Source: Isurus oxyrinchus (lineage: Eukaryota). From it: a stretch of 64,000 bases of DNA. Positions 29,746-63,726 of this stretch are shown here, in pieces; positions within the stretch are counted from its first letter, which is position 1, and each line of letters starts with the position of its first letter. The notes beneath the pieces are model-generated. The model saw nothing but the letters and a program-made list of their open reading frames with translations, made no database searches and was not told the origin of the DNA. The stretch covers positions 682,001-746,000 of the forward strand of contig JANJGN010000052.1 of assembly GCA_026770705.1 (NCBI GenBank). Reading direction: 5' to 3'. The position numbers and the translations under genes are program-made.

Positions 29746-30006
29746 ACACACCACAGAATCTCTCAATTAATTCTCTTGATATGATTAACGCTTCATCGAT
29801 CAATATAATTGAGGGGAATTCGGCAGTGATAATCTGCTCTGTCGAGAGCTTCCCAGCTTCTAACCTGACGTGGCGACATCTTAATGTCCCAATGAACAGA
29901 ACAAGTTCCAACAATGAGCTGTGGTTGGTGATTCCTCAGGTTACATCCAGGGACACTGGAGACTATCAGTGTGTGGCAGAGAATGAACATGGAGCAGTGG
30001 AGGGAT
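29746..30006 (+). pseudogene. Region B: truncated C2 repeat exon
   Basis: Near-identical to gene A C2 exons, but polypyrimidine tract deleted (compare 53221-53242) and 3' end/donor replaced by a LINE. Confidence 0.85.
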
Positions 30007-30029
30007 TACACAGAATTGAACGTTCTCTT

Positions 30030-31075
30030 GTTATTAGCTCATGGGATGTGGGCATTGTTGACAAGACCAGAAATTATTGCCCATCTGTAACTGCCCCTTG
30101 AGAAGGTGGTGGTGAGCTGCCTTCTTTAACCAAAGCAGTCCATGTGGTGTAGGCACACCCACAGTGCTGTTAGGGAGGGAGTTCCAGGATTTTGTCCCAG
30201 TGATGGTGAAGGAACGGCCGATATAGTTCCAAGTCCAGGGCAGACCACCACCTCAAGTTCGCTTCCAAATCACACACCATACTGACTTGGAACTGTCTCA
30301 GCGGAAGAGGTTAAGAGTTTGGAAGGTGCTGTCGAAGGAGCCTTGGTGAGTTGCTGCAGCGCATCTTGTAGATGGTTCACACACTGCTGCCATTGTGTGC
30401 CAGAGATGTAGGGTATGAATGTTTATGCTGGTGGATGGGCTGTCGATCAAACAAGCTGCTCCAGGATGGTGTCGAGCTTCTTGAGTGTTGTTGGAGCTGC
30501 ACTTATCCAGCCAAGTGGAGATTATTCCATCACACTCCTGACTTGTACCTGGTCGATGGTGGGCAGGCTTTGGGGAGTCAGGAGTTGAATTACTCACCAC
30601 AGAGTTCCCAGACTCATACTCGCATTTGTAGCCACATTATTTCCTGTTGCTGGGTTGTTGCCAGGGCCAATAGCCTTTGCTGTAGCCAGTATCATCAGCT
30701 GATTCCTGATGTCACGTGGAGTCAATCGAATTGTCTGAAAGCTGACATCTGTGATGCTAGGACCCTCTGGAGGAGGCCGAGATGGATCATCCACTCAGCA
30801 CTTCTGGCTGAACATGGTTGCCAATGCTTCAGCCTTGTCGTTTGCACTGATGTGCTGAGCTCCCCCATCATTAAGGATGGGGATATTTGTGGAACATCCT
30901 CCTCCTGTTAGATCTTTAATTGTCCATCACCATTCATGACTGGATGTGGCAGGACTGCAGAGCTTAGATCTTACCCGTTGGTTGTGGGATCGCTTTGCTC
31001 TGTCTATAGCATGTTGTTTCCGCTGTTTGGTGTGTATGAAGTCCTGTGTGTCACCTCAGCAGCTTGGCACCTCTG
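30030..31075 (-). mobile_element. LINE fragments, same family as 19341-21410
   Basis: Reverse complement of 20850-21360-like sequence; IRLTPRDI...KAIGPGNNP. Confidence 0.75.
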
Positions 31076-31265
31076 TTATATGTGAATCCTCCTTATAGAA
31101 ACCTGCATGTACATGGATATTATCAATAAATATTACATAGATAAATGTTATTTGTATAGACCTTTCATGCATAGACAATATCACTTCACAAGTTCAGAAT
31201 TACTACATGTACACAGGGAACCATTCTCAAACTGTACCGGAGTCATTCATTGGCTGATTTTACAG

Positions 31266-31362
31266 GGCGAGATTCCAATGAATGGAAAGCAGGATTGCTT
31301 GGAGCTGGAATCTGTTTGAGTGTTGGACTGAGTGGATTCTTCATCTTCAAGTGTGTGAGAAA
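31266..31362 (+). CDS. Region B: intact orphan transmembrane exon
   Basis: ttttacag|..RDSNEWKAGLLGAGICLSVGLSGFFIFKCVRK|GTAAGT; 97 nt, same size and phase as the gene A TM exon. Confidence 0.7.
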
Positions 31363-31664
31363 GTAAGTGTGAAGGTTTAATTGGTTGTTTTTGAAAATGT
31401 TTTCTTCAAACTTCTCTCCTTATAGAAAGAACTTGCATTTCTATAACACCTTTTACAATCCAAAACCCTTCACAGCCCCTGAAGAGTTTTGATGTTCACC
31501 TACTGTTTAACATCTCATCCAACATTCACTGTTTCACAACTCAGACCTGTAATTGGCAGTGTTGACCTGGACCATAAGATACTTTGTGACCTACTGAGGA
31601 TGTGAAAGGTGCTATATAAATGAAAACCTTTCTTTTGTTAGTGAATGCAATCTCTTTCCTTTTT

Positions 31665-31930
31665 CCATGTTTCATTCACTCTCTCTTACCTCCACTAATG
31701 CACGCCTTCTCATTCTCTCTCTCATTCACTCTCTCTCCAATCTCCACTAATGCTCTCCTTCTCATTCTCTCTCTCATTCACTCTCTCTTACCTCCACTAA
31801 TGCTCTCCTTCTCATTCTCTCTCTCATTCACTCTCTCTCCAATCTCCACTAGCTCTCCTTCTCATTCTCTCCCTCATTCACTCTCTCTCCTATCTCCACT
31901 AATGCTCTCCTTCTCATTCTTTCTCTCGTC
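31665..31930. repeat. Pyrimidine-rich degenerate tandem repeat
   Basis: Recurring CTCCACTAATGCTCTCCTTCTCATTCTCTCTCTCATTCACTCTCTCT. Confidence 0.8.
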
Positions 31931-32160
31931 CTCTTACACGTTGTTCAGTCTCTCACATTTTTAAGGAGCGCTGAGCAACATCTGCTCCTTCAGAAGATCC
32001 ACCTCAACACCTGGATTGAGCAGTGAATTGAAACTCGCTCAACGACTGCTCAGCTTTACACAGGAATCACGTCACAGAGTCAGGACACAAAGGGTTAACA
32101 GTTTGCTTACAACACAACACTAAGTCCCTACGTTTCAATGAAAGGGTTTTCACAATTGTT

Positions 32161-32468
32161 CCCCAATTCCTGATTTGACTCACAGAGACACATGCACCCT
32201 TTCTAATTAAACACACAGAGGGAGCAGCACAGGAAGAGGTCATTCAGCCCAAGCAGAGCGTGTGGGCAGTTCCTCCCCAGGCGAGCAGTCGGACAGGTCC
32301 TGGGTAAGTAACGGAACGATTGGAATTCACTTCCACCACCAACACCGTCCTTTGTTGATGTTGTGACTTTATAAAGACAGATTCCAATGATTGATGCCTT
32401 TGAAAGATTTCTACTGATGATTGAGATCTGGGTGTGAGGCTCAGGTTTGTTGTACAGAACATCTTTCT
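32161..32468 (+). promoter_or_regulatory. Promoter/exon 1 copy B (donor at 32303/32304), no leader exon
   Basis: Near-identical to 1075-1378; homology stops at a CR1 3' fragment (~32470-32740). Confidence 0.7.
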
Positions 32469-32814
32469 GGTTAAATTATGCAGACAGGTTACACACAGTC
32501 TACGATTATATTCCCTCGGGTCTAGAAGATTAAGAAGGGATCTAATTGAACGGTTCAAACTGATTAAACACTCGATAGGGTCGATAGAGAGAAGCTATTC
32601 CCTCGGGTGGGGGTGGGTGGTGGGTGTCGGGTGGAGTCCAGAACAAGGGGGCCGGAACTTCAGATTGGAGCCAGGCCGTTCAGGGGTGATGTCAGGAAGC
32701 ACTTCTTCACACAAAGGGAAGTGGAAATCTGGAACTCTCTCCCCAATAATCAAACCCAACACCGAATACACATCATGTTGATAGTCACTCTGTCCATTTC
32801 CATCTCTATTACAG

Positions 32815-32919
32815 AAGAGAGGCGAGAGGAAAGCAGGAATCAAATCAAACCACCGTGTTGATGAATATCGAGGTCCTGTTTATGAAAACTGTGAGCGTGG
32901 TTGGGCTTTGAGGAATCAG
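32815..32919 (+). CDS. Region B: cytoplasmic exon with YEN motif
   Basis: ctctattacag|KRGERKAGIKSNHRVDEYRGPVYENCERGWALRNQ|GTGAGT; phase 0-0, open. Confidence 0.65.
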
Positions 32920-33052
32920 GTGAGTCACACACCACAGGATCCCCAGCCTCTCAGCTGCTCCAGTAGCCTGGTTATTGATATGGCTGCTCCAGTCCTGTAT
33001 CTGCAATGTTTTATACAGTCACTCCCAAACCCAACCAAACTCACACCCAACA

Positions 33053-33862
33053 CCGTTCAGAATCAATAATCAAACCCCGATCAGAATCAATAATCAAACC
33101 CCGTTCAGAATCAATAATCAAACCCCGTTCAGAATCAATAATCACACCCCGTTCAGAATCAATAATCAAACCCCGTTCAGAATCAATAATCAAACCCCGT
33201 TCAGTATCAATAATCAAACCCCGTTCAGAATCAATAATCAAACCCCGTTCAGAATAAATAATCAAACCCCATTCAGAATCAATAATCAAACCCCGTTCAG
33301 TATCAATAACCAAACCCCGTTCAATATCAATAATCAAACCCCATTCAGAATGAATAATCACACCCCGTTCAGTATCAATAATCAAACCCCGTTCAATATC
33401 AATAATCAAACCCCATTCAGTATCAATAATCAAACCCCGATCAGTATCAATAATCAAACCCCGATCAGTATCAATAATCAAACCCAGTTCAGAATCAATA
33501 ATCAAACCCCGTTCAGTATCAATAATCAAACCCCGTTCAGTATCAATAATCAAACCCCGTTCAGAATTAATAATCAAACCCCGTTCAGAATCAATAATCA
33601 AACCCCGATCAGTATCAATAATCAAACCCCGTTCAAAATCAATAATCAAACCCTGTTCAGAATCAATAAACAAACCCCGTTCAGAATCAATAATCAAACC
33701 CCGTTCAGAATTAATAATCAAACCTCGTTCAGTATCAATAATCAAACCCCGTTCAGAATCAATAATCAAACCCCGTTCAGTATCAATAATCAAACTCCGT
33801 TCAGTATCAATAATCAAACCACGTTCAGTATCAATAATCAAACCCTGTTCAGTATCAATAAT
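33053..33862. repeat. 24-bp minisatellite (CCCCGTTCAGAATCAATAATCAAA), ~34 units
   Basis: Direct tandem repeat. Confidence 0.95.
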
Positions 33863-33960
33863 TAATGTATCTATTGTGGGTGGAATTTTCGATTTGGATC
33901 AATAATACTAAACACTGATCACTCTGATTGTCACTCTGATCATTTCTGTTTCTATTACAG

Positions 33961-34077
33961 AAGAAAGATGAGAAGGATCTGGAAATGAAATCTAACCGCG
34001 GAGTCAATCCTGATACAGATGATGATCTTTACGCAAACTGTGAATTTGCTGAGGATTCTGTTTATGGGAATTTATAA
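33961..34077 (+). CDS. Region B: terminal cytoplasmic exon with two tyrosine motifs
   Basis: ttctattacag|KKDEKDLEMKSNRGVNPDTDDDLYANCEFAEDSVYGNL*; SVYGNL fits the ITIM consensus; paralogous to 32815-32919. Confidence 0.7.
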   Translation, partial: KKDEKDLEMKSNRGVNPDTDDDLYANCEFAEDSVYGNL

Positions 34078-36867: not shown

Positions 36868-36907
36868 ATGATCAGGAAATATTACTTCCTCCTGTCACTT
36901 CTCCAAG
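36868..36907 (+). CDS. Unit C leader exon (MIRKYYFLLSLLQ), no dedicated V exon
   Basis: Acceptor at 36834, phase-1 donor; intron homology to gene A ends at ~38020 and the next promoter follows. Confidence 0.65.
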
Positions 36908-39058: not shown

Positions 39059-42000
39059 ATGGTTGGGAAATCTTACTTCCTCCTGTCACTTCTCCAAGGT
39101 AATAACATCGTCAGCTTGGACAGACTTATGGCTAATAGTCTTTGTAAAAGAACATTCTTATGGAGCTCTGATAGGGAACTGATTCAGCAGTGAGTCAGTG
39201 TACAAACTCACACCACGTCCCATTCACCCATCACCCCTGTGCTCACTGATATACATTGACTCCCTGTCTGACAGCAGAACTGCAGGACAGCAGAGACCTC
39301 AAAGGGTTTCAGGGCTGGAGGAGGTGACAGTGATAGGGATTAGAGATGGAGAATGGAGGGATAAGGAATCAATGAAGAGATTTTGAAAATTGAGGCATTG
39401 CTGGACTGGGAGCCAGTGTAGGTCAGTGAGTGACAGGGGAGCGATCGGCTGAATAGAGAAGCAGGGATAAAAACTGGGGGATGAAGTCTATCCTGATGCA
39501 AGCACTCCGATATCAATGCCCTGAAATTTTTCTCTCTTGCTGATTTTCATCAGAATTTCCCATGAAGACAACACAGAAGCTCTTAGATTAGACAGGCAGT
39601 TCAGCGTCACACTTCCTGTCCATTCTCACCATGCTAGAAAATTCGATAAGATAGCAAGATAACTGATAGAGAGAAGGGAGGCAAAGCTGTCTGTATGTAA
39701 AACTGTCAAATATTCTGAGTTATCATGATTGTTTCTGATCTGCTGCAGAGTTTATATTTCATTGAAACTTATCACTTTGCAGCTCAGAGAGAGACCATTG
39801 ACTCACTGCCTGAAAGGGCGGTGGAAGCAGATTCAACAGGAACTTTCAGAAGGGGAACTGGATAAATACTTGAAGGGGACATTTTGCAGGGCTGTGGGGG
39901 AGAGAGCAGAGGTGAGAGTGGGACTAATTGGACAGATCTTTCAAAGGCCCAGCACAGGCTCGATGGGCCAAATGGCTTCCTTCAGTTCCGGATCATTCCA
40001 CAATCCGATAAATTAAATCTCTTATCAGTAACACTTCAGGCTCCCGCTGCAGGAATGGATCTTTGAGAAGGACAGGGAACAAGCGGTTTCTCATATCATG
40101 TTCATATTTATTGACAATTACATAAGTGCATGGAACTGTTGAATATTTGACTCTCTAAAGTGTGGATTTAACCTTCTGGTCCACCCAGATCTTGTGCTGG
40201 TTACCTTGTCTGGAGGTGTCTTTAACTGCTCACAGTGGTCTGTGGGATTGTCACCCTTGGATGTTGTTCCTGATTTCATGTGGGATCTTCTCCTCGATGG
40301 AATAGGAGCGGGAATGGATCTGATTTATCCTCGGTTCCGCCTCACCGCTGTGCCCTTGTGTGTTTGACTCCATAGGCCCTTGGTTCTGAACAAATCCTTG
40401 TCACCTCGGCTGGTGGTCATGAACCTTCTGTGGGATCCTGGATGTGAACTTGTCCCAACTCTAAACTTGGCAACTCTGCACCTCCATTTTTATCATGAAC
40501 ATTCCTTATCTTCTCTTGTAGTTTTAAAAGCTGCCCTCTGGTTTCTGAGAGAGTAGAATGGGTAAGAGTAGCGAAATTGGTCACTACTGGCACACCAAAC
40601 ATGATCTCTGTCAGTGATGGAATAAGGTGAGGTGATGGTGTAGTGGTATTGTTGCTGGATGAGTAATTCAGAGACCCAGGGTAATGTCCTGAGGATATGG
40701 GTTCAAATCCGGCCATAATAGATGATGGAATTTGAATTTAATAAAAATATGAAATTCAAAGTCTAGTGATGACCACAAAACCATTGTTGGAAATCCCACC
40801 TGGTTCACCAGTGCCCTGTAGGGAACAAAATTGTCTGGCCGACATGTGACTCCAGACTCCACGTCAATGTGGTTGACTCTTACATTAGGGATGGGTAATA
40901 AATCCTGGCCTCGCCAGTGACTCCCACATCCCATGAATGAATTTAACAAAGTTGCAGTTGTAGGTGTCGATCTCAGATGTAACATTGCAATGTGTGGATC
41001 TTGCTTGGCCTGTCTACATTTGAGAATTAGGGATTTCACTGTGTGCATCATTCATTCAGCGAGGCTGTTAGATCTGGGGTAATGAGGAGAAGAAGTAGTG
41101 TGATTGATATTCCAGATTATCTGTAATCATGTCCCTAGGTTCACCAAATAATCTGAAAATCGTGCTTAGAGTGTGTGCACCAGTTGTGCTCGGTGTGTTG
41201 TGCTATTTTTGAATAACGGGATATCTGGTAAAGCTGTCGACGATGACGATGAAGTCAGTGACATGGACATGAAAGGATTCAGATGTGATTTTGGACTAAG
41301 AATAGGCAGGAATTTCCTGTGGAATCAGTGGTTCTTTGTGTTGACTTGGCTCATCCTCTTGACAAGCCTCGAACTTCCCTACAACAACTTCAAGGTCATT
41401 GTTCATACCCGGCCAGGGACTGTATCTCTTGTGAGTCTCCTTGTCTGATCTGTGCCCATGTGTGAGGGATGAAGTTGTTGAAGAATATAGGATCACAAAT
41501 GTGCCGGTATGATGCCCTGCCTGCCATTAAAAAAGACTCCCTGGGAGATACCTCGCTTATCTCGATGAGGTCAAGTTGAATCAGGCCACCCTTTCAATGA
41601 TATTTCCACAGTTCCTGCCGAATTTTTCACTGTTCCCTCTTGTAGCTGCTGGCATTTCTCTTGTGCTAAATGTACTGGATCAATTGACAGACTTGCATTC
41701 TCCTGCAGGTGTAATGTTGCAGCTCCCTTGAAACTGACAATACTGTTGAAACTTTCTGCATATTTCAATGTTATGTCCATGAACTGAGTTGCTGGGGTAG
41801 TTTCTGAGTTTGACCCATGTGAGGTCTGACAGATTCCATGGATTGTCTCTAGGGTGAGGTCACCGCATGCCGGTAGACTTGCAATTGCTCAGCCTTTAGT
41901 CTCCACGATGTAGAACATCTGTGACACCCAGGAGGATTGATTGTACTTGCACCCCAGGACTATGGATTCTGCACATGGAGTTGGTGAAGTGTTGTACACA

Positions 42001-45000: not shown

Positions 45001-48000
45001 TTAGATTTAAAACAAATTCAACAAGTTAACACAATGCCCTGGACAGTGGAATTCCAAATGGATTTTCCCCAACTTCAGTTCTGTTGGATAGCAGGCTTGT
45101 GCACAAACAGGGTCCTGAGGACCATGAGCCAATGTAGAATGAACTTGTCCACTCCTGTGTCCAGGATTCTCTTCCATCCGTTATGAAACATTGGGGAGTT
45201 CCATGTGTGTCCTGTAGATGGTCCACACTGCAGCCACTGTGCCCCAGTGATGGAGGGGGTGGATATCGAGTCTAGTGGATCTACAAACCATCCAGAGTTA
45301 AATATTGATATTTCTCTCCCCAGTTGGACTGTCACAAGAGTGGAAAGGTGACACTCCACGAGAGGTGACAGCACAGAAAGGTTCGTGTGTACAGATTCCA
45401 TGTAATTACAATTACCCATCACATTTGTTGGAGAAAACACGTGTTGGAATCTGGAAAATGAGAAGGGACAAATGGCATACATCGTCTATAGCCTTTCACT
45501 CCAAGGATCACAGTCACGAGTTACCACGGTTCCACCATCGGACCCGGCTGTCTGGAGACCTGAAAGATGGTGACTGTTCCCTGATTATAAACAACATCAG
45601 ACGGGAAGATGCAGGACCTTATTTTTTCACGATAAAATTTGGCAATGGTCCGAGCCATAACTATTACCCTGTAACCCAGCTTCACGTTTCTGGTAAGTGC
45701 TGTGTTATAATTACTCAACAATTCACATTCAACACTCAATGGGAAATAATAGTGTTTGATTTGCTTGTTTTTTGGCCGTGTTAACCAGCGTCACTATTTT
45801 TAATGATTTGTCTATTTCTGCTCCCAGATCCATGAGCTTATTGTGTGTGATTGAATCCACATCATAGCTGTAACGTAAACCGAGCTGAGGGGTGATGACA
45901 CCTCCCCGCTGAGTGAAGTATCTCCTCCCCACTACACCTTCCACCCCTCACACTGTCCGTGTAAACCCCTGTCCCATCTCCAGCCTCTCTTTCCCCTCCA
46001 AAGTCCTTGAACGTGTTTCCATCTCCCGAATCCGTTCCCATCTTTCCCGGAACTCCATGTTTGAATCCCTCCAATCAGGTTCCCACCCCAGCCACTGTGC
46101 TGAAACAGCTCTTATCAAGGTCACAAATGGCATCCTGTGTGACTGTGACAAAGGTCAACTTTCCCTCCTCGTCCTTCTCGATCTGTCTGCAGCCTTTGAC
46201 CCGCTCGACCACACCATCCTCCTCCAACCCCTCTCCACTGTCGTCCAGCTGGGTGGGACTGCTCTCCCCTGGCTCCATTCTTATCCATCTCATCGTAGCC
46301 AGAGAATCACTTGCAATGGCTTTGCAGCATCATCTGAACAGTATTAGTTTTCACCTGTCCACTGAGGATCCCCAGCTCTACCTCACCACCACCTCTCTCG
46401 ACTCCTCCACTGCTGCTAAATTATCAGGCTGCTTATCCGACATCCAGTACTGGATGGGCAGAAATTCCCTCCAATTAAATATTGGAAAGACTGAAGCCAT
46501 TGTCTTCATTCCCCACTCCAAACTCTGTTCCCTCGCTACCAACTCCATTCCTCTCCCTGGCAGCTCTCTGAGATTGAAGCCAATCTGTTCACAGCTTTGT
46601 TGTCCCATTTGATCCTGAGATGAGCTTCCGGCCTCATATCTGCGCCCTCACTAACACCGTCTATTTCCACCTCCGTAACATCGTACGACTTCACCCTGTC
46701 TCAGCTCATCTGCTGCTGAAACCCTCATCCACGCCTTCATTACCTCCAGACTCGACTGTTCCAACACACGGTCTACACTCCATAAACTTGAGGCCATCCA
46801 AAACTGCTGACCACGTCCTTACTCACACCAAGTCCCATTCCCTTATCACCCGCTCTGCTCGATGACCGAGACTGGCTCCTGGTCAAGCAAAGTCTCAATG
46901 TCCAAATTTTCATCTTTGTTTCCTCACTATCTCTGTAATCTCCTCCTCCTCCTCCGCCAGCCCCTACAACCCTCCCTATCTCTGTAACTTCTTTCAGTGA
47001 CCAGAAACCACCCCTATCTCAGAACCTTCCTCCAGCTCCAACAACCCTCCCTTTCTCTGCACCATTCTCCAGCCACTCCAACAAACCCTATCTCTAAACC
47101 CCCTTCCAGTCCCTACAGCAATCTCTATCTATGTATCCTCCTCCAGTCCCTACAACCCTCCCTATCTCTATAAACTCCAGTCCCTACAGCCCTCCCTATC
47201 TCTATAATCTCCTCCAGTACCTACATCCCTCCCTATTTCTATAACCTCCTCCAATCCCTACAGACCTCCCTATGTCTATAACCTCCCCCAGTCCTTACAG
47301 CCCTCCCTATCTCTATAACCTCCTACAGTTCCTACAGCCCTCCCTATCTCTATAACCTCCCCCAGTCCTTATAGCACTCTTTCTCACTGTAACCTCCTCC
47401 AATCCCTACAGCCCTCCCTATCTCGATAACCTCCTCCAGTCCCTACATCCCTCCCTATCTTGATAACCTCCTCCAGTACCTACAGCATTCTCTATCTCTG
47501 TAACTTCCTCCAGCCACAACAAACGTCCCTATATCTGTAACCCAATCCTGTACCTACAAACCCCCTATCTCCATAACATTTCCCATTCCCGTCCACCCTC
47601 CCTATCTCTGTTACTATCTTTTGCCCCTAAAGCCTCCCTTTCACTGTAAATTTCTCCAGTCCCTCCAAACCCCCTGTCTCTGTAACCTACTCAGGCCCCT
47701 AAAGCCTCCCTTATCCTTTAACGTCCAACAGTCCCTACAATCCCCTTTTCGCTCAAAGCTCCTCAAGACCCAACAACGTTCCCTAACTCTGTAACCCCAG
47801 CCTGCCCCAACAACCCTTCCTTTCACTGTAAGTTCCACCAGCCCCTCCAACCTTCCCTATATCTGTAACCCCATCCTGCCCCTACAACCCTCCCTGGCTC
47901 TGTAAACTCCTACAGCCCCTCCAATCTTTCCTACCTCTGTAGCCTCACTACAGCCTCTGTACAAAGTACAGCCCCTACAACCCCCCGAGATCACTGCACT

Positions 48001-51000
48001 CCTCCAATTCCGGAATCTTGACCATCACCAGATGCTATCGCTCCAAAATTGGCGGCCGTGCCTTCTGTTGCCTGGGACCCTAAGCTCTGGAATTCCCACC
48101 CAAATCCTCTCCCTATCTCTCTCTCTCTCTGTCTCTTTGTCTCTTTCTCTCTATCTCTCCATAACACCGACCTCTTTTGGTCAGCTGTCGCTAATATCGC
48201 CACATGTGTCTGGGTGACATACTTTGTTTTATGACGCTCCTGTGTAGCACCTTGGGGTGATTGGTCATGTTAAAGTTGTTGTGTAAATATAAGTTGTTGC
48301 CCTTTGACCCTCGACCCCAGATCGAGTCTTATTTTTGAGGGAATGTACAACCTCCTTAGATTTCTGACCAAAATGTCATTTGATTATTTTTATTGAGCGA
48401 ATGCCAAGCCCCGATACCGAGCGAGAGCCTCCTCATTTGCTGAGTTTAAGGTGATGAGTCAGCCCCTTAGTCCGTAGAGGGGATTCTCCTGGGTAATGTG
48501 CAGCCTTGTTTGTGTCTCTCCACAAGCGCATGAGGGGTTTGTACAGAGGCTGCAGCGCTGGAGGGGGTCTGCACAGGGGTCCTGGCCTGTCCTGAGCCAG
48601 TTTTAGCAAGGACTACTCTGGCCTTGGCAGCTGAAAGCCAGCCATTGGACAGACGGGGCCTGTCACAAGGAGCCTGTTAGTCACTCCCCCCCGTGTCTCC
48701 TGTGCTCGGATCCAGACCATGTTGGCTGGTGGATCTGGCTCAGGAAGGGTCCTCCCCATGGGACCCCCAGATGGAAGGTGGGTCGAGCGGGTCATTCACT
48801 TGCATGTTTATTCTGCAGCTTTAATATTTTAAGAAGGTAAGAATGTAGGAACATAAGAAATAGGAACAGGAGCAGGCCATTCGGCCCCTCGAGCCTGCTC
48901 TCGCTGATCTGGTTGTGGCCTTAACTCCATTTTCCTGCCTGTCCCCCAAACCCTTGACTCCCTTGTCGATCAAAAACCTGCCTCACTCAGCCTTGAGTTT
49001 ATTCAATGGCCCAGTCTCCACTGCTCTCTGGGGAAGGGAATTCCACAGGCTAGCGCCCCTCTGAGAGAGGAAATTCCTCCTCATCTCAGTCTTAAATGGG
49101 AAAGCCCTCATTCCGAAACTGTGCTCCCTGGTTCTAGATTCCCCCACGAGGGGGAAACATCCTCCCAGCATCCACCCTGTCAAGCCCCCTCGGAATCGGA
49201 TATGTTTCAATAAGGTCACCACTCATTCTTCTAAACTCCAATGGATACAGGCCCAACCTGCTCAACATTTCCTCACAGGACAAACCCTTTAATCCCAGGA
49301 ATCAGCCCAGTGAAGTTTCTCTGAACTGCCTGTACACAATGATCCTGTTACAATCTCACCAACGCCCTGTGCAGCTGTTGCAAGACTTCCCTCCTTTTAT
49401 ACTCCATCCCTTTGCAATAAAGGCCAACATTCCACTTGCCTTCCTCATTCCGTGGTGTTCCTGAATGCTGACTTTCTGTGATTCATGTACCAGGACACCC
49501 AGATCCCTCTGTACTGCATTCTGCAGCCTCTCTCCATTTTAATAATATTCTGTTTTACTATTCTTCCTGCCAAAATAATTTGTTGCCATTCTCCTCAGTA
49601 TTGACCATCCTCCAAATTCAGCCACATCTGTAAATATCGGGTTCAGTGGATCCACAAACCATCCAGAGTTAAATATTGATATTTCTCTCCCCAGCTGAAC
49701 CCTCACAAGAGTGGAAAGGTGACACTCCACGAGAGGTGACAGCTCAGAAAGGTTCGTGTGTACAGATTCCATGTCATTACAGTTATCCATTGTGTCTGGA
49801 AAACCAACCGCGAGGTGGAGTCTGGTTTAATAATGAGGAATGGAGAACATCGTCTATAGCCTTTCACTCCAAGGATCACAGTCATGAGTTACCACGTTTC
49901 CACCATCGGACCCGGCTGTCTGGAGACCTGAAAGATGGCGACTGTTCCCTGATTATAAACAACATCAGATGGGGAGATGCAGGACCTTATTTTTTCAGAA
50001 TAGAATTTGACAGCGGAAATAGATACAGCTACTATCCTGTAACCCAGCTTCATGTTTCTGGTAAGTGCTGTGTTATAATTACTCAACAATTCACATTCAA
50101 CACTCAATGGGAAATAACACAAACTGTGCCGTTTACATATTAACACAAAACACAGCTTATTATAACACACTGTCTGATTCTCAATAACCTGGTGATAGCT
50201 TCCAGTTCAGTCCTAAAGCAACATCTAATACTCACTTTAATATCAATGATTAAATGTATTGACTGTGTCCATCAGTGTTATCAGGTTATCCACTCGCACC
50301 GATCTCTCTAATCCTGTCTCGAAGTCTGACATATCGATAGAAGAAATATTCACATTTCTATAGCACATTTCACCATCTCAGCATGGACCAAATCACTTCA
50401 CAGCCAATGAGCTGATTCCTGAATTGTAGTTACTGTTGTAAAGTGGGAAACACAGCAGCCAATTTGTGCACAGCAATCTCCCACAAATTGCAAAGTAATA
50501 AATGGCCCAGATTGCTGAGGGACTGATGGGGTAGTGCACTCCAAACTCTGGTCTGCTCCACCACCCTCACCCACTATTATCAGTTCAAGTGTCTCGGAGT
50601 GAACGTGTATTAAGCTGAGAGACAGAAACACCAAAGTCTCAAAGCAGGAAATTCTCTCCTGATCGTTGTAACCTCTCAGTTCTGATATCATCCTTGTAAA
50701 AGTGCTTTCTCTTGTGGGACTGTGATTTCTATTTGAACTGATGCTTCACGTTATATTTCTCTAAAAGGATCCATTCTCTGTCTGTTAGATTTCACAGATA
50801 AACCCACGATATTCCCTGCTGAAATTATTGCAGGAAAGCGTATGGATGTAAGCTGCACCTTCAACACAACGTGCAATGGAACAGCAGCACCTGTCTTAAC
50901 CTGGGACACTCCCACTGACGTACCTGGATCAGTCTCAAACACTGTAACTCAGCATGGTGTCACTCTGACCTATACTTCTGTTCTGACCCTGATCCCATCA

Positions 51001-54000
51001 CTCAAACACCACGGACACACTCTCAGCTGCAGAGTGAGATATCCATCTGTTTCATCGGAGCAGACCCTCGTACTAACTGTGCAATGTAAGTTGAGATATC
51101 CTTCATTCTACATCAGCACTCCCTCAGCGCTGACCCTCTGACAGTGCAGCCTGTTCTCAGTGTCCACATTCTCATTCCTCTCAAAGTGCTTCACAGTCGA
51201 TAGAAATTAACTGATCTTTATTTGATTACTGCTGAATGAAGAGACAAGCTGTCTTAACTTTACACCTCGCACACATTATTTTCCATGGCAACACCTCCTC
51301 CAATCAGTGACCACTTGCCAACCAATCAGCACTCTCTTCCCATCAAGTATAAATTGTTGTTCACTTTCTGTTGGTAAAACTGCGATCTGTCTGTTGAGTC
51401 CTGCCCTGACATCTGAATATCACAATGAACAGAACAAGTTCCAACAATGAGCTGTGGTTGGTGATTCCTTACGTTACATCCGGGGACACTGGAGACTATC
51501 AGTGTGTGGCAGAGAATGAACATGGACCAGTGGATGGGCTCATAACCATCACTGTGGAACGTGAGTGGACACAGACTTCAACATCTCTCTCAGATTGAAT
51601 CATGACACAAACACACACAAATATACAGACCTAAATAGACACCTGCAGACACACAATCCCACATGTATGAGCACACACAATGACACACTCACAAACTAAC
51701 ACACTCAAACACATCTCCCCCGTGGGTTACCTGACCTCCATCAGTGCTGCATCGGAGAGTTGACGTAGATTCTGGGATTTGTGTTCCCATTCATATTTCT
51801 GGAAGAACATGGAAATTGCAAATTCTATTAGACACTCAGATGCACAGAGATACTTACAGATACTGATTGCCTCTCCAACTCTCTCTCTCCCTTGAAGAAT
51901 CTTCTTCAAACCAAACCCTTTGACCAGGCATCTGTCCCAACTCCTCCTTCTGTGAATCTGTGTGAAATATTGTTTGAGTATCTGAGAGTAAGAGAGAGGT
52001 GGAGAGGTTTAGGAAGGGAATTCCTGTTGGTGAAAAGCTTACATCATGTTCCCACCTTTCCAGAGCCCATTTTGCACATGATGTCCAATATCCCTGTTCA
52101 TCATGGGGATTGCCTATGTAAACATCACGCTGTAGTTACACTCTCCTACCAGTGGTGGCACGGTAGCACTTAACCCTTGCATCTCCCAGATTTTCAAGCA
52201 ATTTCACTTCCCAATTTGCTACTACTCACCTCAACCACTCCCTGTGGGAGCGAGTTCCACATTCTCCCCTCTCTCTGGGTAAAGATTGGAACTGTTTATT
52301 AAGCGGGGGGTGTAAGTCCGTGGGGGAGTCCATCTCGATCCTGCCCGATTCGCACACGCGTCCGAGATGGATTTCCATCTTGCACTAAGAAAAGTGTTGA
52401 CGTTTCGAGTCCTCATGACCTCAGTTCTGTCGAAGGGTCATGAGGACTCGAAACATCAACTCTTTTCTTCTCCCCCGAAGCTGCCAGACCTGTTGAGTTA
52501 TTCTTAGCTGATGCTCGCTATCAATAACCAAGAGAGACCGACATTAGAACAAGCTGATTATTTATTGTAACAGAGGGCAGAGCACTAAATCCTTGCCTGC
52601 TCCCACAGCCACCTCCAGCTCTAGACTTACAGTTAACCAGTGGCCCACACTGTCCAGTGATTGGTCAGTACTGTCACATGGTTTATCCACTTGTATTCTC
52701 TTAAAGGTACCTGGCACTCCACATTATCACAGGAGGCCTATAGTACACACATAACAGCATGTTTGCCTCCTCAGCACTGACCCTTCTACAGTGCAGCACT
52801 CCCTCATTACTGACTCTCTAATAGTGTAATGATCCCTCAGTAGTGCTCCTCCAACATTGCACTGGTCAATCAGAACTGACGCTCTGACTGTGCAGTTTTA
52901 TCTCAGCAGTAACCCTCCTACAGTGCAGTGCTCCCACAGTACTGTCCCTCCTACAGTGCAGCACTCCCTCAGGACTGACCCTCTGACAGTGCAGCACTCC
53001 CTCAGTACTGACCCTCTGACAGTGCAGCACGCCCTCAGTACTGACTCTCTGACAGTGCAGCACTCCCTCAGTACTGACCCTCTGACAGTGCAGCACGCCC
53101 TCAATACTGAACTGAAGTGTCTGCCTGGATTACGGGCTATGTGGTGAAAGAACCTACATTGACATCACACCTTTCACATTCTCAGTGTCTTTCAAAGTGC
53201 TTCACAGTCAGTGTAAGTTAACTGATCTGTATTTGTTTTTAGACGCTCCACGGAATCTCTCAATTACTTCTCCAGATATGATTAACGCTTCATCAATCAG
53301 TATAATTGAGTGGAATTCTGCAGTGATAATCTGCTCTGTCGAGAGCTCCCCAGCTTCTAACCTGATGTGGCGACATCTTAATGTCCCAATGAACAGAACA
53401 AGTTCCAACAATGAGCTGTGGTTGGTGATTCCTCATGTTACATCCAGGGACACTGGAGAATATCAGTGTGTGGCAGAGAATGAACATGGAGCAGTGGAGG
53501 GGTTCATAACCATCACTGTGGAATGTGAGTGTACACAGACTTTAAAATTTCTCTCATCTCCAAACACATATACTCAGATGCTCTCCCACACACACACACA
53601 AGCACTCACAAATGTACAGACCCAAAGTGCATGCACACACACAATCCCACACTCATGAGCACACAGAAAGACACACTCACACACTAACACAGTAGTACAC
53701 ACTCCCCTGTGAGTTACCTGACCTCCCTCAGTACTGCACTGGAGAGTTCTCCTGGATTCTGGGATTTGTGTTCCCATTCATATTTATCGAAGAATATCCA
53801 AATTACAAAGTCTATTCCAGAAACTCACATGCACAAAGATTCCAACAGATACTCCCCACCTCTCCGTGTATCTCTCCCCTCCTTTAAGAAGCTTCCTAAT
53901 CCCTCACTCTTGCCTGTCCTAACTCCTCCTTATAATGCCCTGTGTCAAATTTTTTGTGTATCTGAGAGAAAGGGAGCGATAAGGAAGTTTAGGAAGGGAT

Positions 54001-55368
54001 TTCCTGTTAGTGAAAAGCTTACTTCATTTTCTCACCTTTCCAGTGTTCAGTTTTGCCATCATGTCCAATGACCCTATTTATAATGGGGGCATCCTATGTA
54101 AACGTCACACTGTCTTTACATCCTCCCACCAGTGGTGGCACTGTGGTGCTTAACCTTGCACCTCCCAGCTTTTCAGCCAACTTCACTTCACAATTTGCTA
54201 CACATGCTGTAAGGTCATCAAAATTAACTTATATATCAAATGGTAGATTTGATAATACAGTTTATTGAAAGGTTCATCCGCGCTCTGGGAAGGGTTTACA
54301 CTCTCCAGGAAGCAGGAATAGGCTGGATGTTGGGGAGTTCATCTTTTCCCAGAGAGTCGGGATCTTCGGGAATGTGCTGTCAGTGGGTGTGGTGGTTGCT
54401 GTTTCTCTGTTGCCTTCAAGAGGGATCTGGAGTGGTTACTAACTGGGGGAGAGATCATGGAAGCAGAGAATGGTACAGCACAGGAGGAGGCCATTCAGCC
54501 CATTGAGCCTGTGCCAGGTCTTTCAATGTTCTATCCAATCAGATCCACTAACCACCACTCCACTTTGCCCCCATCTTCTTCCTTCAAGTGTTTATCCAAT
54601 TTCCCTTTTGAAAGTTCCTATTGAATCTGCTTCCACCGCCCTTTCAGGCAGCACCTTCCAGATCACAACAACTCGCTCTGTCAAAACAAATTCTCCTCAT
54701 CTCCCCCTCCAGTTGGTCAATCTGTGTCCCTCTGGTTACCGACCCTCCTGCCCCTTAAATACATCGATACTGTTCACCTCAACCACTCCCTGTGGGAGTG
54801 AGTTCCACATTCTCCCCTCTATCTGGGTAAAGATTGGAACTGTTTATTAAGCGGGGGGTGTAACTCCGTGGGGGAGTCCATCTCGATCCTGCCCGATTCG
54901 CACACACGTCCGAGATGGATTTCCACCCTGCACTAAACGTTTCCAGAATTTTCTACAGCACAATCCTGTACACAGCGATGGAGAGAAACATTGGACAGGG
55001 AGTCCAACAGCACAATGATCCATTCTCACCAATGTTCCACGCTAAGGGGAAAGTTCCGATTGTCCACTCTTAGAGTGTTTACAATGAAAACATTCATTCC
55101 ACATTGAATCCCAGTGGATGGGTCAATATTACAGCAAATGTTGCAGTGATATGAAGCTTGATTGTTCAGCCAGAGTGAGAGATTGAAAGCGGAGAGTCAG
55201 TGATGATTTCTTTCTGTGTGTTCTCTAGACAGTGGAGGAGAGATTCTGCACGTGATCCTGATCCTGGGAATACAAGCTGTGATATTCCTTGTGGCTGTGG
55301 TTATCACTATCGCTGGAGTCTGTGTCTGGGAGAGACAAACAGTGAAAGGAAGTCGACAGACTGTTTGA
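39059..55368 (+). CDS. Gene D: Siglec-like receptor with two V-set domains and a short tail; join(39059-39098,45324-45692,49695-50060,50789-51085,53243-53524,55229-55368), ~497 aa
   Basis: All introns phase 1 with AG/GT; no promoter or leader copy between the two V exons; TM followed by 12 residues and a stop. Confidence 0.8.
40100..42940 (-). mobile_element. Degenerate Ty3/Gypsy LTR retrotransposon internal region with a nested SINE (40625-40945, plus)
   Basis: Protease KIDTGAS; integrase HGH..WPGMNNDL..CQE and TTSSPHYPRSNSLAE*MMHTVK. Confidence 0.8.
43392..45230 (-). mobile_element. LTR-like elements upstream of V1
   Basis: TG...CA-bounded segment to ~44646; 44930-45070 is reverse-complement-similar to 19960-20100; partly shared with 62342-63240. 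Confidence 0.45.
45324..45692 (+). CDS. Gene D V1 exon (essential Arg replaced by Thr)
   Basis: KGSCVQIPC, GDCSLII, GPYFFTIKF with ACG at 45629-45631; 369 nt, phase 1-1. Confidence 0.9.
45870..48300 (+). mobile_element. L2-type LINE with an internal ~37-bp CT-rich satellite (~46925-47990)
   Basis: ETALIKVTNGIL..LLVLLDLSAAFD.LDH; DPQLYL; LQLNIGKTEAI. Confidence 0.88.
48850..49590 (-). mobile_element. CR1 LINE 3' end
   Basis: FPLVGESRTREH..FKTEMRRNFLSQR..LWNSLPQ on minus. Confidence 0.88.
49695..50060 (+). CDS. Gene D V2 exon (essential Arg present, extra Cys)
   Basis: AEPSQEW..PCHYSYPLCLEN..GPYFFRIEF with AGA at 49997-49999; 366 nt; near-identical to gene A V. Confidence 0.9.
50789..51085 (+). 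CDS. Gene D C2 (Siglec domain-2 type) exon
   Basis: 297 nt, near-identical to 6487-6783. Confidence 0.9.
51408..51560 (+). pseudogene. 3' half of a C2 repeat exon (5' half and acceptor lost)
   Basis: MNRTSSNNELWLVIP..DYQCVAENEHG with donor; downstream intron duplicated after 53524. Confidence 0.85.
52388..52503. mobile_element. Minimal palindromic Penelope-terminus insertion
   Basis: GTTGACGTTTCGAGTCCTCATGACC ... GGTCATGAGGACTCGAAACATCAAC inverted arms. Confidence 0.7.
53243..53524 (+). CDS. Gene D C2 repeat-type exon
   Basis: 282 nt, phase 1-1, open, both Cys. Confidence 0.85.
55229..55368 (+). CDS. Gene D transmembrane and short-tail exon
   Basis: ttctctag|(Y)SGGEILHVILILGIQAVIFLVAVVITIAGVCVWERQTVKGSRQTV*; phase 1. 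Confidence 0.8.
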
Positions 55369-55479
55369 AGCTTTGTACAGCAACAATCTGGTCAGTCAGT
55401 GCGGACAAATAACGTGTGATGTTGGGTTAAGTTGTAATGAAACTGGTCAGTGTCCTGGTTAGAATCACCTTCGTATCAG

Positions 55480-56075
55480 AGAGGCATTCCAGCACAGTGG
55501 GAGCCCATTCAGCCCATTGAGTCCATGCTGCCTCTCTGTAAAGCAATCCAGTCAGTCCCATTTCCCCCTCTCTATCCCCGTATCTCTGCAAGTTTATTTC
55601 CCCTCAAGTGTCCATCCAATTTCCTTTTGAAATCGTTCATCGTCTCCACTTCCACCATCCTCGTAGGCAGCGAGTTCCAGCTCATTACCACTCACTGTGT
55701 AAAAAAGTTCCTCCTCACATCCCCCCTCTGCCCAAAACCTTCAATCTGTGTCCCCCAGTCCTTGTACCATCAGCTAATGGCAACAGCTTCTCTTTGTCTG
55801 CCTTATCTAAACCCATCATCATCTCTTACACCTCGATCAGATCCCCCCTCAATCTCCTTTGCTCCAAGGAGAACAACCCCAGCTTCTCCAACCCAACCTT
55901 GTAGCTAAAATCCCTCATCCCTGGACCCATTCTGCTCAATCTCCTCCCCACCCTCTCAAGGACCCTCACTTCCTTCCCAAAGTGAGGAGACCAGAACTGG
56001 ACACAATACTCTAGTTGTGACCTAACCAGAGCTTTATAAATGTTCAGCATAACCTCCCTGTGTTTGTTCTCAATC
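55480..56075 (-). mobile_element. CR1 LINE 3' end
   Basis: YKALVRSQLEYCVQFWSPH..RRLRGDLIEV on minus. Confidence 0.88.
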
Positions 56076-56446
56076 CCTCGATTTATGAAAAGCTTATTCT
56101 TTCCATCAGCACAAACAGCAATTTCCAAGCGGACTCCCATCAGCAGACAGAGTGCAATGAAACATCGGCATGCCTGCTTCTTAATGTACGGAGAGAAACC
56201 TGCAACGAGAGATTCTCCTTCTTCTCCTCAGCAAGCTGAAACTTTTCCTTATACCTGGTGCTCCCCAGTCCTGCTGTGTGGACACATCATAACCACGGCA
56301 TTGTCTGGCTGTGTGCAGCCAACATGGTCGAATAGGAATGAACAGAAATGTGACGTTGCTAAACTCTGTTCTCTGATTGGAATGTGCTTTCTGAATGCTG
56401 CACCTTTTTCATGCTGCGATAGATTGTAAGAAGCATTTGGGTTATG

Positions 56447-56452
56447 AATAAA
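56447..56452 (+). terminator. Candidate polyadenylation signal of gene D
   Basis: AATAAA in a block (56310-56670) homologous to the gene A 3' UTR (19175-19330 plus 21410-21610). Confidence 0.5.
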
Positions 56453-57179
56453 ATTACATTGATTTCCTCAAGTGATTAAAATGCTCAGCCTTTTCTGTAG
56501 ATATTTATAGATTAAAATTCTTATTTTGCAACCAAATTTTTGGCTCAAAGACATTACTTCATGTTGTCACATATTCTCTATCATATGAATTCCTGTGCCC
56601 ATCTTTATAATAAAAATTTCCCATGTAAACATGTCACATTGTAGTTGCACACTCCTGCCAGTGGTGGTGCCATTCCAAAGCTGTCTTGCTGCACCGACAC
56701 AGTGAGAAATATTCTCGACGTGTACATGATGTTGTTGTTACACGGACATCAGGCGGAACCTTGGGCAGTGCCTAGAATGCACTTAGGACAGTGCAGACCA
56801 TGCTCAGAACTGACAGTGCAGCGTTTCCTCAGTGCTGACCCTCCGTCAGTGCAGCGCTCCCTCATTACTGTCCCTCTGACAGTGCTGCACTACCTCATTA
56901 TTGACCCTTTTCAAGTGCAGCACCCCGTCAGCACTGACCTTCTGACAGTGCAGCACTCCCTCAGTACTCACCCACCCACAGTGCAGCATTCCCTCAGTAC
57001 TGATCCTCTGATACTTTATCCCTCCCTCACTACTGACCTTACGACAATTCAGCACTCCCTCAGTACTGATGCTCCCACAGTGCAGCACACCCTCAATTCT
57101 CACCCTCCCACAGTGCAGCCCTCCCTCTGTACACACCCTCCCACAGTGCAGCACACCCTCAGTACTCCCCCTCCCACAG

Positions 57180-61900: not shown

Positions 61901-63726
61901 CCGTCTGCTCCCCAGCTCTTTACTTGAGCTCTTTCCCATCACTGTGTCTTCAAAGGTTTCCTGAGCAGTCAGTACACTGCGATTTCAACCCTCTCTGATG
62001 CTGTGTCTCTGTTGTGGTCTGACCAAAGCGTCGAGGGTCGTCTCATGTCATGTAGCTCGATCTCAGGCTGTTCACCATGTCATACCTGTACTGAATCTTG
62101 CTGCCAGAATGTTTGGCCACCGCTGATCACCATGTTGTGTTTTTATAATGATATAAAGGCACCAGCCACTGATACGGAATTGGGTAAATACATTGTGGGT
62201 TGAGTTATTTAGAACAGGGACATGAGAACAGATATACAAGGATAGAAAGCTGGGAGACACCTGCGGCCAAACTGTGTGAGCTGTGTTCTGCTCACAGGCC
62301 AAAGTGAAACTTGGACTGGATGGTGTTATCATCCCAGCTGATGTTACTACTGGGCAAGTCAGATCCCAGGGTGGAACTCAGCTTGATAGGTCCTAACTTT
62401 TATTTTTTATTTAGGAATGTGGAGTGCGGCTACTGAACAGAGTCACAGGAGTCATCTGATGATCTTCTAACAAAAGAATAAAACATTTATTAAACTAGGA
62501 AAGACAAACTATATTACATTACACCTTCACCCAGATCTATACCTTTGCAGATTCATAAGTAGAACACAAGTTACAATAACTATCTTATATTCTCATGTTC
62601 ACACTAAGTGCACAGTCGATATAAACCAATAGACGACCTGTGGTCAGGGACACCACATTCTGAAAGAAACTGACAGAACCCACTTGAAACAAATGCCAAG
62701 TCTCCCTCCTCATCTGACCCCAGACGCTTGTTACACTGTGAGACAACCAGTCTCACTGACTCTCCAAGAACTCGCTTTGGAATCTTCTCCAACATGACAC
62801 ATTCACTCAGACACCTTCCACAAGGGTCCACTTTCACTATTTCAAACTCTCCTTCCCATGTTCCTGCCCCCTGGATCGCCACGTGCATTCAGCCTTCCTT
62901 CCACGCCCTGTCTCTCCAATGCTCAGCCGTGTCAATGGAACACCATGGCTTCACATGGCCGTAGTAATGAGTCACCAACCTGTGGTGTCTCCTAGGATCT
63001 TCTGGCTTCTCACAAGCCTATTTTGATTTAGGCAAAACAAAATCAGCAAGTTAACCCAATGCCCCGGACAGTGGAATTCCAAATGCATTGTCCCCAACTT
63101 CAGTTCTGTTGGAGAGCAGGCTTGTGCACAAACAGGGTCCTGAGGACCATGAACCAATGTAGAATGAACTTTTCCGCTTTTGTGTCCAGGATTCTCTTCC
63201 ATCTGGTGTGATACCTTGTGGAGTTCATTGTGTGTCCTGTAGATGGTCCACACTGCAGCCACTGTGCCCGAGTGATGGAGGGGGTGGATAATGAGTCTTG
63301 TGGATCAACAAAACATCCAGAGTTAAATATTGATATTTCTCTCCCCAGTTGGATTGTCACAAGAGTGGAAAGGTGACACTCCACGAGAGGTGACAGCGCA
63401 GAAAGGTTCGTGTGTACAGATTCCATGTCATTACAGTTATCCATCAGATTTGGTAAAGAAACCACATGTCGGAATCTGGAAAATGAGAAGCTACATACGG
63501 AACAAATGGTCTAAATGGTCTACAGCCTTTCACTCCAAGGATCACAGTCACGAGTTACCACGGTTCCGCCATCGGACCCGGCTGTCTGGAGACCTGAAAG
63601 ATGGCGACTGTTCCCTGATTATAAACAACATCAGACGGGAAGATGCAGGACCTTATTTTTTCACGATAAAATTTGGCAATCGTCCGAGCCATAACTATTA
63701 CCCTGTAACCCAGCTTCAGGTTTCTG
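58917..63726 (+). CDS. Gene E (5' part): join(58917-58956,63349-63726); leader plus Arg-less V1, continues past the window
   Basis: MIGKSYFLLSLLQ plus VGLSQEW..GPYFFTIKF (ACG 63663-63665); introns collinear with gene D. Confidence 0.87.
59960..61900 (-). mobile_element. Degenerate Gypsy element, paralog of 40100-42940, retaining a gag-like N-terminus
   Basis: MSTKFPSLNWDVADRLSEFRMFKQRTELWF (61305-61520); shared blocks with 41680-41800 and 42330-42940. Confidence 0.7.

What the first reader, a model, noticed from the sequence alone, without database searches (positions are those of the whole stretch)
55229..55368. Activating-type TM with Gln at the expected Lys position: possible decoy
Seen: this TM is unrelated to the A/B TMs, has a polar Gln mid-helix (LGIQAVIFL, codon CAA at 55273-55275, one base from AAA Lys), an N-terminal His and a 12-residue tail without Tyr. 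Known: Siglec-15 uses a TM Lys and Siglec-14 an Arg to recruit DAP12. Inference: D derives from an adaptor-coupled activating receptor and may now be signalling-null or couple differently.
Basis: partly seen in the sequence, partly recalled or inferred. Interest (0 to 1): 0.7.

Follow-up and report, generated by a model that had tools for sequence, protein, structure and literature searches.

The report
Shark Siglec missing its membrane arginine
One copy of a hugely multiplied shark immune-receptor gene carries glutamine where 217 matching sites in the genome carry a membrane arginine, a common type of mutation that likely unplugs it from its signalling partner and looks like ordinary gene-family turnover rather than a purpose-built decoy.

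Summary
In detail: CAA (Gln) at 55273-55275 in the membrane-anchor exon, with a 12-residue Tyr-free tail. The gene is an intact 497-aa shark Siglec-like receptor (leader-V1-V2-C2-Ig-TM).

The expected residue is Arg, not Lys. Genome-wide the site reads CGN in 217 places, CAA in 5 and AAA in none; 7 of 7 homologues with this anchor in other sharks have Arg. CGA>CAA is a CpG transition that arose twice: once in a four-copy clade duplicated together with inhibitory neighbours, once beside a frameshifted V exon. Two origins equals the median for 38 nearby CpG bases.

RNA-like contigs of the family splice only after the stop, so no tyrosine tail is added; all contigs laid across the site show Arg. 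Best reading: a likely adaptor-uncoupled, near-neutral variant in a birth-and-death family; a selected decoy is unsupported.

The striking context is family size: about 220 activating-type and 330 inhibitory-type anchor exons and 780 V exons in this assembly. The scan noted the Arg anchor before on other DNA of this genome.

The parts
39059..39098 (+). Leader (signal peptide) exon of the gene
   Evidence: tblastn with shark homologue N-termini; ATG and GT donor, in frame
45324..45692 (+). V1 exon, Siglec-type V-set; the sialic-acid-binding Arg is replaced by Thr (FTIKF)
   Evidence: Pfam V-set 1.5e-12 and Ig_CD22 1.2e-07; AG/GT, in frame
49695..50060 (+). V2 exon, Siglec-type V-set with the YFFR Arg kept
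   Evidence: Pfam; best PDB matches Siglec-5 1.1e-13, CD33, sialoadhesin
50789..51085 (+). C2-set exon
   Evidence: Pfam C2-set_2 6.2e-09; RNA-like contigs of the family join its 3' end straight to the anchor exon (loose ends)
51408..51561 (+). 5'-truncated remnant of an Ig (C2b) exon, intronic
   Evidence: tblastn covers only residues 44-93 of the C2b exon
53243..53524 (+). Intact Ig (C2b) exon; may be skipped
   Evidence: Pfam Ig_3 / I-set; AG/GT, in frame
55229..55368 (+). Membrane-anchor exon with 12-residue tail and stop
55273..55275 (+). Gln467 codon CAA, derived from CGA (Arg) by a G>A transition at 55274 in a CpG
55391..56110 (+). Intron in the 3' UTR, donor 22 bases after the stop
   Evidence: GT..AG joint 55389/90 to 56109/10 in RNA-like contigs X3 and X17, two studies
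56111..56470 (+). Non-coding last exon, AATAAA at 56447; 3' end approximate
16414..19144 (+). Neighbouring inhibitory-type gene A: anchor and cytoplasmic exons with ILYANI and TEYTQI motifs
31265..34074 (+). Neighbouring gene B: anchor and cytoplasmic exons with tyrosine motifs (DLYANC, SVYGNL)

Best explanation
This exon is the membrane anchor of a shark Siglec-like receptor of the activating type whose ancestral membrane arginine (CGA) has mutated to glutamine (CAA), which likely unplugs the receptor from its ITAM adaptor and is likely a near-neutral event in a fast-turnover gene family. Shown: ancestral Arg, the CpG context, two origins, an intact 497-aa reading frame, no tyrosine tail, and co-duplication of four copies. 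Inferred: Arg copies would pair with the Asp pair of an adaptor dimer, best guess FcR-gamma (Arg in a type I anchor, 5-8 residues into the helix; an FcR-gamma-like exon is in the genome). The Gln copy, if expressed, would reach the surface but not signal. Its four copies were likely carried along in a block of at least 39 kb that also holds inhibitory genes A and B.
For: 217 CGN against 5 CAA, 0 TGA/AGA/GGA, 0 AAA. Arg in 7 of 7 homologues with this anchor among 96 hits, from white shark and two catsharks. Gln needs 2 changes on the tree of 116 copies; 0% of 200 bootstrap trees allow 1. Two origins against a median of 2 and mean of 3.0 for 38 other CpG bases, and 0.28 for non-CpG transitions. 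The fifth Gln copy groups with copies that share a V-exon frameshift. 48 of 153 full V exons near these anchors carry a frameshift or stop. B anchors lie about 24 kb upstream of all 4 clade copies, and an A anchor about 38-39 kb upstream of both C52 copies. PMC1440944 (passages): assembly rests on the basic side chain, and even Lys/Arg swaps cut it strongly. PMC11335228 (passages): TREM2 K186N does not co-precipitate DAP12 yet stays at the surface. PMC6288428 (passages): null alleles of activating Siglecs are frequent in humans.
Against: All 4 clade copies keep a full frame and canonical splice sites, where only 52 of 116 sampled loci show an intact V upstream of an intact C2 within the 8.7 kb viewed; the copies are young (about 0.4-1.5% apart), so this says little. 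No coupling was measured for any shark copy, so 'activating' is inferred from anatomy. The CpG comparison uses parsimony counts that gene conversion can inflate, on a sample chosen by an exact match around the codon. PMC1440944 notes that Gln or Asn in model helices can drive self-association, so the residue may not be inert.
Confidence: 0.65

Rival explanations
1. Selected decoy: the Gln clade was kept and amplified because a ligand-binding, non-signalling receptor damps its activating or inhibitory siblings.
For: Four intact copies; V2 keeps the binding Arg; the change arose twice; TREM2 K186N shows such mutants can reach the surface (PMC11335228).
Against: Frequency matches CpG background; the second origin is beside a broken V exon; duplication included neighbouring genes; only 5 of 222 sites; the outer V1 lacks the binding Arg.
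Confidence: 0.1
2. Altered rather than lost coupling: Gln keeps a weak polar contact with the adaptor's Asp pair, or makes the receptor self-associate in the membrane.
For: Carboxamide side chains can oligomerise model helices (discussion in PMC1440944). The rest of the anchor is identical to the commonest Arg version, 57 of 116 copies.
Against: The basic side chain is critical in KIR-DAP12 and Fc-alpha-RI-FcR-gamma; the amide swap K186N abolishes binding. His7 is not conserved and lies at the helix edge.
Confidence: 0.13
3. Silent copy: the frame is intact only because the duplication is young; the gene is not transcribed and the Gln has no consequence.
For: Every contig laid across 55274 in three RNA-like runs (2 samples) has G; broken copies are common.
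Against: Contigs drop rare variants and the individuals differ from the assembled one, so this is no evidence of silence; leader, splice sites and UTR exon are intact.
Confidence: 0.1
4. Sequencing error, or derivation from a Lys codon.
For: The A was not seen in contigs of 4 of 4 public runs laid.
Against: Five assembly copies on 3 contigs and two branches; polishing would favour the majority G; no AAA copy; Arg in all homologues with this anchor.
Confidence: 0.02

Closest known systems
[quoted passage not shown]
   Same: Siglec V-set plus C2 ectodomain, short tail without ITIM, basic membrane residue in the family, ITIM-bearing look-alikes next door, frequent loss of activating members (PMC13358205, PMC13233462, PMC6288428; passages). 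That Siglec-14 uses Arg is recalled, not checked in a call.
   Different: This copy has Gln; two V domains; hundreds of paralogues rather than a pair; adaptor untested and possibly FcR-gamma; orthology to mammalian genes not established.
TREM2 K186N
   Same: Basic-to-amide change in the membrane helix; the mutant loses the adaptor and stays at the surface (PMC11335228, passages).
   Different: A human disease allele of a single-copy, Lys/DAP12 receptor; here Arg>Gln in 5 of 222 redundant sites.
FcR-gamma-coupled Arg receptors (Fc-alpha-RI, LILRA2, GPVI, NKp46, Xenopus XFL TM1)
   Same: Type I receptor with Arg in the outer part of the helix and a short tail (PMC1440944, PMC2413239; passages).
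   Different: No NxxR motif here (LGIR); Arg sits at about position 5-8 rather than 3; Siglec ectodomain.
Primate Siglec-12 / Siglec-XII
   Same: Loss of the essential Arg in a V domain (PMC6288428); the tandem V arrangement of Siglec-12 is recalled and echoed in scan note e1-9575185.
   Different: Siglec-12 is recalled as ITIM-bearing; here the anchor is of the activating type and V2 keeps its Arg.

Membership tests
Siglec family | N-terminal V-set domain of Siglec type followed by C2-set | tested here: met
   Pfam V-set, Ig_CD22 and C2-set_2; the top 18 PDB matches are Siglecs, including CD33, sialoadhesin and MAG
Siglec family | Essential Arg in the outermost V domain | tested here: not met
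   V1 reads FTIKF; V2 keeps YFFR, aligned to Siglec-5; 97 of 104 intact family V exons keep Arg
Siglec family | Siglec cysteine pattern (two Cys near strand B, one in strand E, extra Cys in C2) | tested here: met
   Three V Cys align with Siglec-5; the C2 exon has a second Cys after the first; disulfides themselves not tested
Siglec family | Binds sialic acid | not testable with these tools
   needs a glycan assay
Adaptor-coupled activating receptors (Siglec-14/15/16 type) | Basic residue in the membrane helix | tested here: not met
   Gln in this copy; Arg at 217 of 222 sites in the genome
Adaptor-coupled activating receptors (Siglec-14/15/16 type) | Short tail without tyrosine motif | tested here: met
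   12 residues, no Tyr; the only downstream splice seen lies after the stop
Adaptor-coupled activating receptors (Siglec-14/15/16 type) | Association with DAP12, DAP10 or FcR-gamma | not testable with these tools
   FcR-gamma-like and zeta-like exons are in the genome; the DAP10 family search gave no credible hit (best E 0.41); DAP12 was not searched
Siglec-15 (Lys-type) | Membrane Lys | tested here: not met
   0 AAA or AAG among the matches; Siglec-15 is a weaker PDB match (7e-09) than Siglec-5 or CD33
FcR-gamma-coupled NxxR receptors | NxxR motif at the helix start | tested here: not met
   The family reads LGIR
Decoy receptors | Expressed, binds the shared ligand, reduces sibling signalling | tested here: inconclusive
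   Gln allele not seen in contigs, which cannot show absence; function untested

The most novel reading that the evidence does not exclude
A one-base CpG switch turns activating Siglec-like receptors into surface decoys, and a recently amplified clade of four intact Gln genes tunes a paired-receptor array of some 550 anchor exons and 780 V exons in one shark genome.
Probability: 0.1. Interest if true: 0.65.

Novelty: new variant of a known kind. Interest (0 to 1): 0.3.

Why it matters
The Gln variant alone matters little: loss of the membrane charge has precedent and here occurs at mutation background. It does supply a natural Arg/Gln pair on an otherwise identical anchor, a clean control for finding which adaptor shark activating Siglec-like receptors use. 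The wider point is the array: one 4.17-Mb contig holds 66 activating-type, at least 65 A-type and at least 32 B-type anchor exons. That implies activating/inhibitory Siglec-like pairing on a very large scale in cartilaginous fish. Four paper searches (listings) showed no paper describing it, but the library lacks most subscription journals.

Tried and rejected
Lys ancestry: rejected, no AAA or AAG copy and Arg in all homologues with this anchor.

His as a substitute basic residue: rejected, Asp in catsharks.

Splicing to a tyrosine tail: not seen; the one GT..AG joint downstream lies after the stop.

Comparison with gene E: not possible, the next anchor exon is B-type.

Public runs: no listed holder is on record as RNA. 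X3, X5 and X17 are guessed RNA, though their exon-exon joints fit RNA. All contigs across 55274 in X3, X5, X17 and X4 had G. Contigs drop rare variants, and the organism code need not be the window's species, so this shows neither silence nor absence.

The Gly>Trp change in C2b as a sign of decay specific to the Gln clade: rejected, it is also in 2 Arg copies.

DAP10 family search: no credible hit. DAP12 was not searched.

No structure or complex prediction was run: a one-residue membrane change would not be resolved.

Search of earlier findings by sequence: nothing.

Scripts 39 and 40 ended in errors and were rerun. L153 was dropped from the 116-copy set because it matched only partly.

Full report
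Observation. The sequence is as described: CAA at 55273-55275, in an exon that begins after AG at 55227-55228 and stops at 55366-55368. His is residue 7, Gln residue 15, and 12 Tyr-free residues follow the Trp. The exon has no relative elsewhere in the window.

The gene. Homologues of the V exon are all shark and ray proteins, mostly named Siglec-, CD33- or MAG-like; 96 of 108 candidates passed, the closest at 92% from Carcharodon carcharias. Mapping them back gives one gene: leader 39059-39098, V1 45324-45692, V2 49695-50060, C2 50789-51085, C2b 53243-53524 and the anchor exon. All junctions are AG/GT and in frame, giving 497 aa without an internal stop, with Gln at 467. V2 matches Siglec-5, CD33 and sialoadhesin best in the PDB and keeps YFFR; V1 has Thr there. 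Genes A and B upstream end in tyrosine-motif tails.

What the residue was. A DNA search of the own genome gave 229 candidates for this exon; the first 30 loci held 25 CGA and 5 CAA. Exact patterns gave whole-genome counts: 217 CGN, 5 with a non-G middle base, all CAA, and 0 TGN/AGN/GGN. Two patterns with other flanks returned the same five. One of the 217 belongs to a non-Siglec Ig gene on C21. About 10-15 further candidates (229-237) were not typed by these patterns. Among the 96 homologues, 7 carry this anchor, from white shark and two catsharks, all with Arg and a short Tyr-free tail. The ancestor is therefore CGA (Arg), and CAA is a transition at a CpG. Lys plays no part. The His is Asp in catsharks.

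History. I fetched 10-kb stretches for all 5 Gln copies and 111 Arg copies, about half of the family, mostly from C52 and C71. L153 was left out as a partial match. On a tree of the surrounding 680 bases with the codon masked, Gln needs two changes: a clade of four (98/83) and a lone copy; no bootstrap tree of 200 allows one origin. The four are intact 497-aa genes differing at 3-6 coding positions from the window copy and share at least 20 kb at 98.3-99.6%. B anchors lie about 24 kb upstream of all four, and an A anchor 38-39 kb upstream of both C52 copies, so the duplicated unit is multi-gene. Two of the four lie 2.46 Mb apart on one contig; the others could be alleles. The lone copy groups with L103, L063 and L149, and shares a frameshifted V exon with them.

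Is two origins special? No. The 38 other CpG bases in the region show a median of 2 and a mean of 3.0 parsimony origins, non-CpG bases 0.28, although the sample holds every Gln copy but only half of the Arg copies. An Ala>Thr CpG change in the same helix is in 24 of 116 copies. Caveats: gene conversion can inflate such counts, and the sample was chosen by an exact match around the codon. Decay is common: 48 of 153 full V exons have a frameshift or stop.

Transcripts. Contigs of runs guessed to be RNA join the C2 exon directly to the anchor exon (X3, X5, X17) and splice a GT..AG intron that starts 22 bases after the stop (X3, X17; two studies). The family is thus spliced as modelled and gains no tyrosine tail. 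Every contig across 55274 had G, including DNA run X4 (76% read); contigs cannot show absence, so expression and population spread of the Gln allele remain open.

Mechanism. PMC1440944 (passages) shows that adaptor assembly centres on one basic side chain against an Asp pair, that type I Arg receptors use FcR-gamma with Arg near the outer end, and that DAP12 prefers a central Lys. Here Arg is residue 8 after the His/Asp, or residue 5 in white-shark homologues with a Gln before ILG. The genome holds an FcR-gamma-like exon with the membrane Asp (2 copies; best PDB match FcR-gamma, 4.6e-12) and a zeta-like exon. A DAP10 search found nothing credible; DAP12 was not searched. FcR-gamma is my best guess and is untested. 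TREM2 K186N loses DAP12 yet stays at the surface (PMC11335228, passages), which is the predicted behaviour of the Gln form. Null alleles of human activating Siglecs are frequent (PMC6288428, passages).

Context. Patterns with up to one mismatch count 780 V exons, 225 A-type and 108 B-type anchors beside 222 sites of this type. These are exon counts in one assembly and may include haplotype duplicates and dead copies. 81 of 104 intact V exons sampled are distinct proteins, with variation concentrated in one segment in the first half of the domain. Paper searches (listings only) showed no description of this array. PMC8455134 mentions Siglecs once as an ancestral jawed-vertebrate family (passage; its Supplementary file 9 was not viewed and may bear on this). 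PMC13262535 lists the Siglec family under Tetrapoda (passage). The scan's earlier notes already describe the Arg anchor and the paired layout on other windows of this genome.

Verdict. A real but ordinary Arg>Gln CpG variant of an activating-type Siglec-like anchor, likely uncoupled (0.65). Selected decoy 0.10, altered coupling 0.13, silent copy 0.10, error or Lys origin 0.02. Interest 0.3, most of it owed to the family context.

Noticed in passing
G000 C52, C71, C121, C150, C189, C323, C385, C546, C557, C646, C724 and others: Very large paired Siglec-like array: 780 V exons, 222 activating-type, 225 A-type and 108 B-type anchor exons by pattern count; activating and A-type are near 1:1.
   Followed up: partly
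L153:8657-8760 (G000:C21 near 89.45 Mb): A related Arg anchor exon (QILGIRAVIF) follows Ig exons that do not resemble the Siglec ones (Pfam ig 4e-05); they look CD2/SLAM-like by recall. Agrees with scan note e1-9340811.
   Followed up: partly
L157:1483-1602 and L158 (G000:C1723, C1648): FcR-gamma-like membrane exon in a shark, whereas PMC4016189 (2014; passage) found no FcR-gamma homologue in the shark genomes then available.
   Followed up: partly
window 45324-45692 and 63348-63725: Outer V1 exons lack the sialic-acid Arg (FTIKF); 7 of 104 intact V exons sampled lack it.
   Followed up: partly
window 49695-50060: V2 has an extra Cys (CLENQ), common in the family and in other sharks.
   Followed up: no
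window 6990-15600: Gene A has seven near-identical full C2b Ig exons plus fragments; RNA-like contigs show such exons joined head to tail.
   Followed up: no
window 29748-34074 and 36868-36906: Gene B's C2b exon is cut at its 3' end by a repeat and no V or C2 exon of its own was found; an orphan leader exon lies at 36868.
   Followed up: no
anchor exon, window-equivalent 55354 and 55240-55311: Other copies carry a tail stop (2 of 116) or in-frame deletions inside the anchor (2 of 116).
   Followed up: no
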